This document shows positions 8,581 through 29,818 of a stretch of 64,000 bases of DNA, piece after piece. Positions within the stretch are counted from its first letter, which is position 1. The number at the start of each line of letters is the position of its first letter. The stretch lies in NCBI GenBank assembly GCA_029856145.1, contig JAHQWK010000016.1, positions 32,001 to 96,000 on the forward strand, in the 5' to 3' direction. The notes beneath the pieces are model-generated. The model was not told the DNA's origin, made no database searches, and saw nothing but the letters and a program-made list of their open reading frames with translations. Position numbers and translations under genes: made by a program. The stretch comes from Promethearchaeia archaeon (lineage in GTDB: Archaea > Asgardarchaeota > Lokiarchaeia > Sigyniarchaeales > SOKP01).

Positions 8581-9030
8581 ATGTGTGCTGAAGAATTTGC
8601 AAGCTTCTTAGATAGTACTCGAAAAGCACCATTGGAAGAAAAACTAAATGCTTTTGGTGATATTATTGAAAAGATAATGTCTATTATCTTACGCATCCCT
8701 GATTTGGTTGATCAATCCTTAGGCTCAGTAAATGAGAAAGTATCAAATTTACAAAACCAAATTAATTCTCTGAATAGTCAAATAACATCAGGTCAATTAA
8801 GATCTGGAGGTGCTCCAGCAACAGCGACTCTTGCACCAGCTGGTCCAGCGGCAGCACGTGCACCCGGAGGTCCACCTCCACCACCACCTAGTGGTCCACC
8901 CGGAGGTCCACCCGGAGGTCCAGGTCCTGCCCCTACTCCTGCCCGTCCGGCAAGTCCAGTATCACTTAGAGGGGCAATTATGGGAGAATTAAAGAGTCTA
9001 TTTGCTAAGCGTAAGACCCAATCTGGATAA
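8581..9030 (+). CDS. Coiled-coil + polyproline + C-terminal amphipathic-helix protein (WASH/VASP-like architecture)
   Basis: GPPPPPPSGPPGGPPGGP tract; C-terminus 'LRGAIMGELKSLFAKRK'. Confidence 0.8.
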   Translation: MCAEEFASFLDSTRKAPLEEKLNAFGDIIEKIMSIILRIPDLVDQSLGSVNEKVSNLQNQINSLNSQITSGQLRSGGAPATATLAPAGPAAARAPGGPPPPPPSGPPGGPPGGPGPAPTPARPASPVSLRGAIMGELKSLFAKRKTQSG

Positions 9031-9310: not shown

Positions 9311-9921
9311 TTAGAACTCTAAAAATCCAGGATCATCAAAAATATCATCAATTTTTCGTTCTTTCTTTATCTTTGTATCCGTTTCAGCAAATAAGGATTC
9401 TTCATCAGTTCTAACCCCCCGTTCTAGTTCTTCAGTATCACGTTTTAATAATGCATCTTTTTCAAGCTGTTTATATTTTTCCGATCGTATTTTCCAATTA
9501 TCAACTTCATCCAAATTAACATTATCTTCTTCTAATAATATCGCTGCTTTTGTTTTACATAGATCTGATAAAATAGAATAGGATAGAATAATATCTCCCC
9601 ACTCATTATCTTCTTTTAAACTAACAATCCGTTTTTCTAATCTTAGTAATTCTTGGTCTGCATAATATATATCAATAAAATCCCCAAAAGCATCAACGGG
9701 TTCTGAGATTGAATTTACTAATACTTCTTTTGTTAAATCACAATTTCCACATTTTACAGTAGCAAAGGCACCTTTCTTCTTAATATCAGTGACTTTTACG
9801 CTTTTTTCACCGCATTCCATGAAAAATTGGAAATCAATTATTTTCATTCTGGACAGGTGAAAATTTTTGGTACTCTCTTAACTCTTTTTGGTGATACTTG
9901 TTTACGTTTTCTTCTTCCCAT
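9311..9921 (-). CDS. elf1: Transcription elongation factor Elf1 with C-terminal extension; two exons (9921-9847 and 9814-9311), about 192 aa
   Basis: Exon 1 MGRRKRK..PKIFTCPE + exon 2 CGEKSVKV..VKCGNC..EPVDAFGDFIDIY gives the Elf1 signature once 32 nt are removed. Confidence 0.88.
9815..9846 (-). other. Putative 32-nt BHB intron in elf1 mRNA
   Basis: Hairpin insert with TGA/TAA stops; central helix CCAG/AUGG, two AAU bulges, exon-exon helix UUUUCACC/GGUGAAAA. Confidence 0.8.
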
Positions 9922-10120
9922 TATTATCACTACGCAAATATGTAATTAAATTATCTGTCATCATTTAGAATAAAGAAAAGGAAAACTAAAATATTTTTGC
10001 TTTTATGTGAAAACATTTGAAGGCTTTTAGCAAAATTTTTTAGGAATGATTAATTATTTCACTTACTTTTTTTTACTGAAATAATTTAGCAATTTTAATA
10101 ATGGTGAGTGGATTTTAGGT

Positions 10121-29112: not shown

Positions 29113-29818
29113 GGATGAAATAGAACTAATATGTGGGATAGACGAGGCTGGTAGAATTTAATTCGCTTCGAATTATATGTTAAAAGGCTCTGTCTTAGGC
29201 CCTATGGTTTTATGTGGAATTTGTTTCAATAAATCAAAAATAAACTTATTATCTGAAATAGGTGTTAAAGACTCAAAAAAATTATCTCCTATAAGGAGGA
29301 ATAAATTAGCTAATCTCTTGAAAAATTACTGCCACTCATATAAAATCGTTATAATTAGTCCTCAGGAGATTGATGAGAGAGAAAGTAAAAAAATTACATT
29401 GAATCGACTTGAAGAATTAAAAATGGCAGAGATTATCAACACACTGAAACCAGATGTCATTTTTATAGATGCTGTGGATGTAAATGAAGAAAGATTTGGA
29501 CATTCTATAAAAAAATTATTGAATTATATTCCTAAAAAAATAATTTCTGAACATAAGGCTGATGACATATATCCAATAGTTTCAGCAGGTTCTATTATGG
29601 CTAAAGTTAAAAGAGATTCTCTAATTGAAGAACTTCATAAAAAATATGGAAATTTTGGTTCAGGATACCCTTCTGATATTAGAACAATTGAATTTCTTAG
29701 AAATTATGTAAAAAATAATAAGAAACCACCTAAAATCGCAAGGAAATCATGGAATACAACTAAAAGAATAATAAATGAAGAGTTATCTACAAAAAAAATA
29801 ACTGATTTTCTTAATTAA
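29072..29818 (+). CDS. rnhB: Ribonuclease HII; two exons (about 29072-29154 and 29185-29818)
   Basis: ICGIDEAG-R|GSVLGPMV, KDSKKLS, EHKAD..YPIVSAGSIMAKV.RD, GSGYPSD, C-terminal PIP-like KITDFL. Start is ATG 29072 or TTG 29090. Confidence 0.92.
29155..29184 (+). other. Putative 30-nt BHB intron in rnhB mRNA
   Basis: Insert with an in-frame TAA; hairpin UAAUUCG-CUU-CGAAUUA; central helix UGGU/GUUA, bulges AGA and AAA. Confidence 0.82.

What the first reader, a model, noticed from the sequence alone, without database searches (positions are those of the whole stretch)
9815..9846. 32-nt BHB intron splits the Zn-ribbon CxxC of Elf1
Seen (RNA): UUUUCACC-U-GU[CCAG]AA^U-GAAAAUAAUUG-AUUUC-CAAUUUUUC[AUGG]AA^U-GC-GGUGAAAA. 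Unspliced it reads ...FTCPE*; spliced it gives FTCPE|CGEKSV and shifts into the downstream frame. There is an 8-bp exon-exon helix and one G.A mismatch in the central helix. A 5-nt GAAUG direct repeat flanks the insert, so the boundary can slide, but the product is the same.
Basis: partly seen in the sequence, partly recalled or inferred. Interest (0 to 1): 0.9.

Follow-up and report, generated by a model that had tools for sequence, protein, structure and literature searches.

The report
Mobile tRNA-type mini-intron in Asgard elf1
A 32-base insert that seems to break the gene for transcription factor Elf1 in an Asgard archaeon is very probably a tiny intron cut out of the mRNA by the tRNA-splicing enzymes, and in related genomes it travels with a neighbouring DNA-cutting "homing" enzyme gene that would explain how it spreads.

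Summary
Observation confirmed (minus strand, 9846-9815). Removing the 32 nt restores the first CxxC of the only elf1 copy of a Loki-type Asgard genome. A 30-32 nt insert sits at the same nucleotide in 34 of 99 relatives' loci and 34 of 79 metagenome loci; the others read seamlessly. The 47 distinct inserts diverge but all carry an in-frame stop, 42 keep a bulge-helix-bulge fold, and the central helix covaries. Three lengths and mismatched codons argue against recoding. EndA (two subunits) and RtcB are present, and seven more genes here (aIF2-gamma, uL11, RNase HII and others) have like inserts in signature motifs. Splicing is inferred (about 0.9): no usable RNA reads. The scan reported this elf1 intron twice before in other genomes. 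Added here: a free-standing GIY-YIG endonuclease gene (I-TevI fold) lies just upstream of elf1 in 11 of 41 intron-bearing allele types and 0 of 75 intronless ones, with decaying remnants; it is absent at this window's locus. Patchy presence (at least 14 changes) and intron/gene discordance fit collaborative homing (about 0.7). In print, only cbf5 is a documented archaeal coding-region intron of this kind.

The parts
9847..9921 (-). elf1 exon 1 (25 codons, basic N-terminus to FTCPE)
   Evidence: PF05129 profile 1-26
9815..9846 (-). 32-nt BHB-type intron; starts with in-frame TGA; internal hairpin with 5-nt loop at 9834-9830
9311..9814 (-). elf1 exon 2 (167 codons; rest of zinc ribbon plus acidic C-terminal region)
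   Evidence: profile 28-78
9846..9852 (-). 5' strand of central helix (9852-9849) and first bulge (9848-9846), cut between 9847 and 9846
9814..9820 (-). 3' strand of central helix (9820-9817) and second bulge (9816-9814), cut between 9815 and 9814
9853..9863 (-). 5' arm of exon-exon helix (codons for F-T-C)
   Evidence: 10 of 10 pairs
9804..9813 (-). 3' arm of exon-exon helix (codons for C-G-E)
9922..10120 (.). 199-nt intergenic spacer; empty here, but the site of the GIY-YIG gene or its remnants in some intron-bearing relatives
29155..29184 (+). second mini-intron of the same class in this window, splitting the DEAG-RG motif of RNase HII

Best explanation
The insert is an archaeal bulge-helix-bulge intron in a protein-coding mRNA. 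The pre-mRNA folds so that exon 1 and the intron's 3' end form a 4-bp helix between two 3-nt bulges; the two-subunit tRNA-splicing endonuclease EndA cuts after the second base of each bulge and RtcB joins the exons, restoring C-P-E-C of the zinc ribbon; unspliced RNA stops after 25 codons. Shown: anatomy, conservation, enzyme genes. Inferred: cleavage and ligation (about 0.9). The intron most likely spreads and persists by collaborative homing (about 0.7): a free-standing GIY-YIG endonuclease gene just upstream cuts intronless elf1 alleles, repair copies intron and nuclease gene together, the intron protects its own allele, and the nuclease gene later decays and is lost, the state seen in this window. 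The F-T-C-P-x-C-G-E codons are self-complementary and close a 7-nt loop even without the intron, a ready-made site where such an intron is spliceable.
For: Same-nucleotide insert in 34/99 genome loci of four genera and 34/79 metagenome loci, seamless in the rest. 47 distinct inserts: 47 with in-frame stop, all with A first in both bulges, 44 with at least 3 of 4 central pairs; own partners pair 3.0 vs 2.50 +/- 0.11 when swapped, 0 of 10,000 shuffles. Exon helix 9.7/10 pairs with intron vs 8.1/10 without; flanks more conserved among intron carriers. dN/dS 0.05-0.12; single copy. EndA x2 and RtcB. Seven more such inserts in G000 restoring textbook motifs, including aIF2-gamma and uL11. Nuclease: 11 intron+nuclease, 30 intron only, 0 nuclease only, 75 neither; reverse look-up from nuclease proteins again led to intron-bearing elf1; I-TevI catalytic domain Z 10.5, rmsd 2.2 over 90 residues (TM 0.73); invariant R, E, N; truncated and stop-bearing copies. 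At least 14 changes on the elf1 tree; this intron is 84% like introns of alleles 22-23% distant but 69% like those of alleles 11-13% distant.
Against: No spliced RNA seen. The strict BHB is 4.3 kcal/mol above the minimum-energy fold and most copies have one central mismatch; 3 of 47 have two. In this genome alone an ATG overlapping the stop is in frame with exon 2. No nuclease gene at this window's locus; its cleavage site is unknown; the first Tyr of the YIG motif is replaced by Leu or Arg; loci are kin, so the association P-value overstates.
Confidence: 0.88

Rival explanations
1. Translational bypassing (T4 gene 60 or byps type): the ribosome takes off at GAA, skips stop and hairpin, and lands on the matching GAA; the RNA is not spliced.
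For: Here and in 15 more of 34 loci take-off and landing codons match, followed by a stop and a hairpin.
Against: Codons do not match in 18 of 34 loci, the stop is often not adjacent; other inserts in the genome lie inside codons with 1-2 nt repeats; exon-intron and exon-exon pairing is what is conserved.
Confidence: 0.03
2. Split gene: a 25-aa peptide and a separately initiated second protein, coupled by the ATGA overlap, assemble the zinc ribbon in trans.
For: In this window the ATG overlapping the TGA is in frame with exon 2 and gene callers use it.
Against: 20 of 34 intron-bearing loci have no in-frame start for exon 2; cannot explain splits inside GHVDHGKT or DxHxxG motifs.
Confidence: 0.03
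3. MITE footprint, duplication scar or assembly error in a pseudogene.
For: 5-nt direct repeat and hairpin; AT-rich inserts get a stop about 54% of the time by chance.
Against: Insert single-copy; repeat is 0-5 nt across relatives; dozens of independent assemblies; exons intact and under purifying selection; no second elf1.
Confidence: 0.02
4. The intron is real but old and only lost repeatedly (by recombination with spliced cDNA or intronless alleles); the GIY-YIG gene is an independent passenger of the intergenic spacer.
For: Inserts share a related central hairpin, so one origin is plausible; 30 of 41 intron-bearing types lack the nuclease; distant nuclease relatives occur at unrelated loci and as the C-terminal domain of a giant protein.
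Against: Nuclease never seen before intronless elf1 (0 of 75), occurs in two genera with different intron types; intron/gene discordance; raised divergence beside the junction in sister pairs (24% vs 2-4%); related nucleases precede uS8 genes with 29-nt inserts.
Confidence: 0.25
5. The near-universal single mismatch tunes splicing so that Elf1 output is regulated by EndA availability.
For: 40 of 47 inserts have exactly 3 of 4 central pairs, with the mismatch at different positions; all have a stop.
Against: Most relatives lack the intron; gain and loss between very close sisters; relaxed motifs are usual for this enzyme type (PMC2738675, PMC5829648).
Confidence: 0.08

Closest known systems
cbf5 pre-mRNA BHB intron of Desulfurococcales and Sulfolobales (Watanabe 2002; Yokobori 2009, PMC2738675)
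   Same: Short ORF-less insert in a coding sequence at a functionally critical codon, relaxed BHB, cut after the second bulge base, two-subunit EndA, present in some relatives and absent in others.
   Different: Different gene and phylum; cbf5 was confirmed by cDNA and cleavage, this is not; here at least eight genes of one genome carry such inserts, presence changes between close sisters, and a free-standing endonuclease accompanies it.
Asgard tRNA introns (bioRxiv 10.64898/2026.10.13.758758)
   Same: Short BHB-bounded inserts, repeatedly gained, same predicted enzyme; splicing also not yet shown in an Asgard cell.
   Different: That study covers tRNA genes only (no mention of mRNA or Elf1) and found no general route of arrival; the endonuclease link offers one for mRNA introns.
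Collaborative or trans homing in phages (free-standing endonuclease plus ORF-less intron; reviewed in PMC2988022); I-TevI and Seg GIY-YIG endonucleases
   Same: Endonuclease gene outside the intron, conserved target, GIY-YIG catalytic domain with helical DNA-binding tail, signs of co-conversion.
   Different: Known cases involve self-splicing group I introns in phages; here a 30-nt protein-spliced intron on an archaeal chromosome; cleavage untested.
BHB intron in the 5' UTR of Haloferax HVO_1309 (PMC7714728)
   Same: mRNA substrate of the splicing endonuclease.
   Different: Lies in a UTR, does not interrupt a reading frame.

Membership tests
Archaeal BHB (EndA-spliced) intron | Two 3-nt bulges on opposite strands around a 4-bp helix | tested here: met
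   Met in relaxed form, 3 of 4 pairs; 42 of 47 homologues keep the geometry vs 0.8% in shuffles
Archaeal BHB (EndA-spliced) intron | Cuts after the second bulge base coincide with the boundaries given by intronless homologues | tested here: met
   in several relatives no direct repeat, so the boundary is unique
Archaeal BHB (EndA-spliced) intron | Flanking exon helix and intron helix | tested here: met
   10 exon pairs; 5-bp intron helix; intron hairpins mean z -3.5
Archaeal BHB (EndA-spliced) intron | EndA able to take relaxed motifs, and a ligase, encoded in the genome | tested here: met
   Two PF01974 genes and full RtcB; alpha subunit shows Tyr/His/Lys and an L1-like loop by inspection (my knowledge); Asgard EndA is two-subunit with L1 (PMC5829648)
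Archaeal BHB (EndA-spliced) intron | Excision from the RNA in vivo or cleavage in vitro | not testable with these tools
   No RNA run of this organism listed
Elf1 zinc-ribbon family (PF05129) | Basic N-terminus and two CxxC knuckles | tested here: met
   Only after removing the insert
GIY-YIG homing endonuclease (upstream gene in relatives) | GIY-YIG fold with catalytic Arg, Glu, Asn | tested here: met
   I-TevI Z 10.5, rmsd 2.2, 90 aligned; R102, E158, N175 invariant; Pfam hit weak, E 0.002
GIY-YIG homing endonuclease (upstream gene in relatives) | Patchy, insertion-like distribution with decay | tested here: met
   Spacer 1.6-1.9 kb with gene, 0.9 and 0.4 kb remnants, about 0.2 kb empty; internal stops in two copies
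GIY-YIG homing endonuclease (upstream gene in relatives) | Cleaves the element-free allele and spares the intron-bearing one | not testable with these tools
   Needs a cleavage assay
Translational bypass element | Matching take-off and landing codons | tested here: not met
   Match in this window but not in 18 of 34 homologous inserts
MITE or IS footprint | Multiple genomic copies, constant target duplication | tested here: not met
   Single copy; repeat length 0-5 nt

The most novel reading that the evidence does not exclude
Loki-type Asgard archaea routinely splice many mRNAs, including essential ones, with the tRNA-splicing machinery, and these 30-nt introns are selfish elements seeded into conserved motifs near gene starts by a family of free-standing GIY-YIG endonucleases (elf1 and uS8 seen here), giving a concrete route for intron invasion of protein genes in the closest prokaryotic relatives of eukaryotes.
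Probability: 0.6. Interest if true: 0.88.

Novelty: new variant of a known kind. Interest (0 to 1): 0.78.

Why it matters
In the papers I could search, BHB introns inside archaeal coding sequences are documented only for cbf5. Here one Asgard genome has at least eight candidates, so mRNA splicing by EndA and RtcB would be routine in this lineage, and gene callers mis-annotate the affected proteins. The endonuclease partner makes an open question, how such ORF-less introns arrive (left open for Asgard tRNA introns in a 2026 preprint), testable with one cleavage assay. It does not show any link to spliceosomal introns.

Tried and rejected
Sequencing runs: no RNA holder listed; the four runs are probably DNA and hold 11-15% of the words. 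One contig joins 9814 to 9848, but it is about 88% identical, so it is an intronless relative and not evidence of splicing. Long, endonuclease-containing versions of the intron: none among about 180 loci. LAGLIDADG gene upstream of elf1: not found. Scar of an old elf1 start before the nuclease gene: not found. Copies of the insert elsewhere in the genome or in the detected tRNA introns: none above chance; 25-nt matches in three other genomes are chance hits in unrelated sequence. A close relative of the elf1-linked nuclease in this genome: not found with this query at E 1e-20; the best match is a domain of a 1,650-aa protein. Intron in elf1 of other families of the class: not found in those searched. 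Rfam and promoter scans gave nothing. Five low-ranking scan candidates were rejected as intact genes. I first rejected the FAD-oxidoreductase candidate, then accepted it after the paralogue test. Literature searches found no paper on Asgard mRNA introns or an Elf1 intron; subscription journals are mostly missing.

Full report
Observation. The finding lies on the minus strand. From ATG 9921 the frame gives 25 codons ending in FTCPE and stops at the first codon of a 32-nt insert (9846-9815); deleting it yields a 192-residue protein with C-P-E-C and a second CxxC. Pfam Elf1 matches the two halves at profile positions 1-26 and 28-78, and this is the genome's only PF05129 match. The fold is as described: central helix of three pairs plus G.A, two AA^U bulges, 10 exon-exon pairs, a 5-nt repeat. 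It ranks 9th of 12,804 BHB-like sites by constrained energy, but lies 4.3 kcal/mol above the free minimum. The host is a Loki-type Asgard archaeon (30% GC; neighbours' proteins are labelled Promethearchaeota).

Relatives. Of 99 elf1 loci from the family, 34 (genera g1, g2, g4, g6) have a 30, 31 or 32-nt insert at the same nucleotide and 65 read seamlessly; metagenome contigs give 34 of 79. Other families of the class showed uninterrupted genes in those searched. The 47 distinct inserts differ widely, yet all contain an in-frame stop, all have A first in both bulges, 40 have three and 4 have four central pairs, and each 5' strand pairs better with its own partner (3.0) than with swapped ones (2.50 +/- 0.11). 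Intron carriers keep the exon helix better (9.7 vs 8.1 of 10) and their junction flanks diverge less than the rest of the gene; kinship inflates any P-value here. Exons are under purifying selection (dN/dS 0.05-0.12). Even intronless alleles form a stem closing a 7-nt loop, because the F-T-C and C-G-E codons are complementary: the site is pre-adapted for a spliceable insert (sequence shows this directly; the role is inference).

Rivals. Three lengths would need three different recoding events. Bypassing looks attractive in this window (GAA, stop, hairpin, GAA) but the codons do not match in 18 of 34 loci. A restart at the overlapping ATG works here but 20 of 34 loci have no in-frame start. The insert is single-copy, against a MITE.

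Machinery and class. The genome has two EndA genes and a full RtcB; Asgard EndA is the two-subunit type with the loop linked to relaxed substrates (PMC5829648). My genome scan found seven more 28-32 nt inserts that restore signature motifs: RNase HII (window 29155-29184), a B12-binding mutase subunit, uL11, aIF2-gamma, a cold-shock protein, an FAD oxidoreductase and mevalonate kinase. The aIF2-gamma and uL11 inserts recur at the same site in some relatives and are cleanly absent in the rest. Since these genes are normally indispensable (established knowledge), precise removal must occur. The count is a lower bound. Earlier notes of this scan describe the elf1 intron in two other genomes and several of these genes; they are not independent evidence.

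Mobility. Intron presence needs at least 14 changes on an elf1 tree built without the junction columns, and near-identical sisters differ. In such pairs the 21 nt beside the junction differ by up to 24-33% against 2-5% elsewhere. This window's intron resembles those of distant alleles (84%) more than those of its nearest alleles (69%; short AT-rich sequences, so modest evidence). Prompted by scan notes on LAGLIDADG genes beside other mini-introns, I examined the upstream spacer. In 14 loci a same-strand gene of up to about 630 codons, or its remnant, ends about 80-110 nt before elf1; after merging near-identical alleles the table is 11 intron plus gene, 30 intron only, 0 gene only, 75 neither. 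Starting from the protein side, close homologues again led to intron-bearing elf1; one 48% homologue did not. The model (pLDDT 82.7) has an I-TevI-like GIY-YIG domain (Z 10.5, rmsd 2.2, 90 residues; TM 0.73 but E 0.02) followed by helical HTH-like domains, with invariant Arg, Glu and Asn. Full, stop-bearing, truncated and empty states all occur; this window is empty (199 nt, as in intronless relatives). More distant homologues precede uS8 genes carrying 29-nt BHB-like inserts. This matches collaborative homing as reviewed for phages (PMC2988022), and would explain why the inserts hit conserved motifs, mostly near gene starts. No cleavage is shown, and a look-up of the nuclease in the scan's notes found nothing.

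RNA. No RNA run of this organism was listed; the one contig that skips the insert belongs to an intronless relative. Splicing therefore stays inferred.

Verdict. It works like the cbf5 intron and meets every sequence-level test for a BHB intron; the defining experimental test is open. Spliced intron about 0.9, homing by the GIY-YIG partner about 0.7. New variant of a known kind; interest 0.78.

Noticed in passing
window 29155-29184 (+): 30-nt BHB-like insert with stop splits the DEAG-RG motif of RNase HII; the real start lies near the end of the upstream regulator gene.
   Followed up: partly
L126:501-530 (+), G000 contig C5: 30-nt insert in the P-loop of aIF2-gamma; also in 1 of 29 other loci. 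The protein has an N-terminal helix-hairpin-helix extension of about 100 residues.
   Followed up: yes
L125:542-569 (-), G000 contig C28: 28-nt insert in ribosomal protein uL11; same site in at least four relatives with diverged hairpins.
   Followed up: yes
L124:333-364 (+), G000 contig C19: 32-nt insert in the DxHxxG motif of a B12-binding mutase subunit; best BHB energy in the genome.
   Followed up: partly
L127:399-428 (-); L128:254-285 (+); G000 C3:203065 (+): Inserts of 30, 32 and 31 nt in a cold-shock protein, an FAD oxidoreductase and mevalonate kinase; the last shares the 5-nt loop of the elf1 intron.
   Followed up: partly
L265 and L266 (genomes G084, G005): GIY-YIG homologues directly upstream of uS8 genes that carry 29-nt BHB-like inserts at two nearby positions; uS8 of this genome is intact.
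   Followed up: partly
L264, L267-L269: Further GIY-YIG homologues upstream of an EF-2-like GTPase (contig ends at the P-loop) and of a radical SAM gene; not checked for introns further in.
   Followed up: no
L245:1942-6903 (-), G000 contig C9: A 1,650-residue protein ends in the same GIY-YIG domain and is followed by a leucine-rich-repeat gene; another homologue lies in a 13,771-codon frame (G140). Resembles a polymorphic toxin and immunity layout.
   Followed up: no
G000 C18:28297-29604 (-): RtcB lies about 2.4 kb before the start of this window on the same contig.
   Followed up: partly
L087-L091; G125, G126, G129: Some Elf1 homologues in the class are longer and contain two or three Elf1-like zinc ribbons.
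   Followed up: no
window 8581-9030 (+): Small protein with coiled coil, proline-rich stretch and a C-terminal WH2-like segment, resembling an actin regulator (my recollection, untested).
   Followed up: no
G000 whole genome: ARAGORN finds only 27 tRNA genes, many odd, including tRNA-Sec; consistent with heavily interrupted tRNA genes.
   Followed up: no
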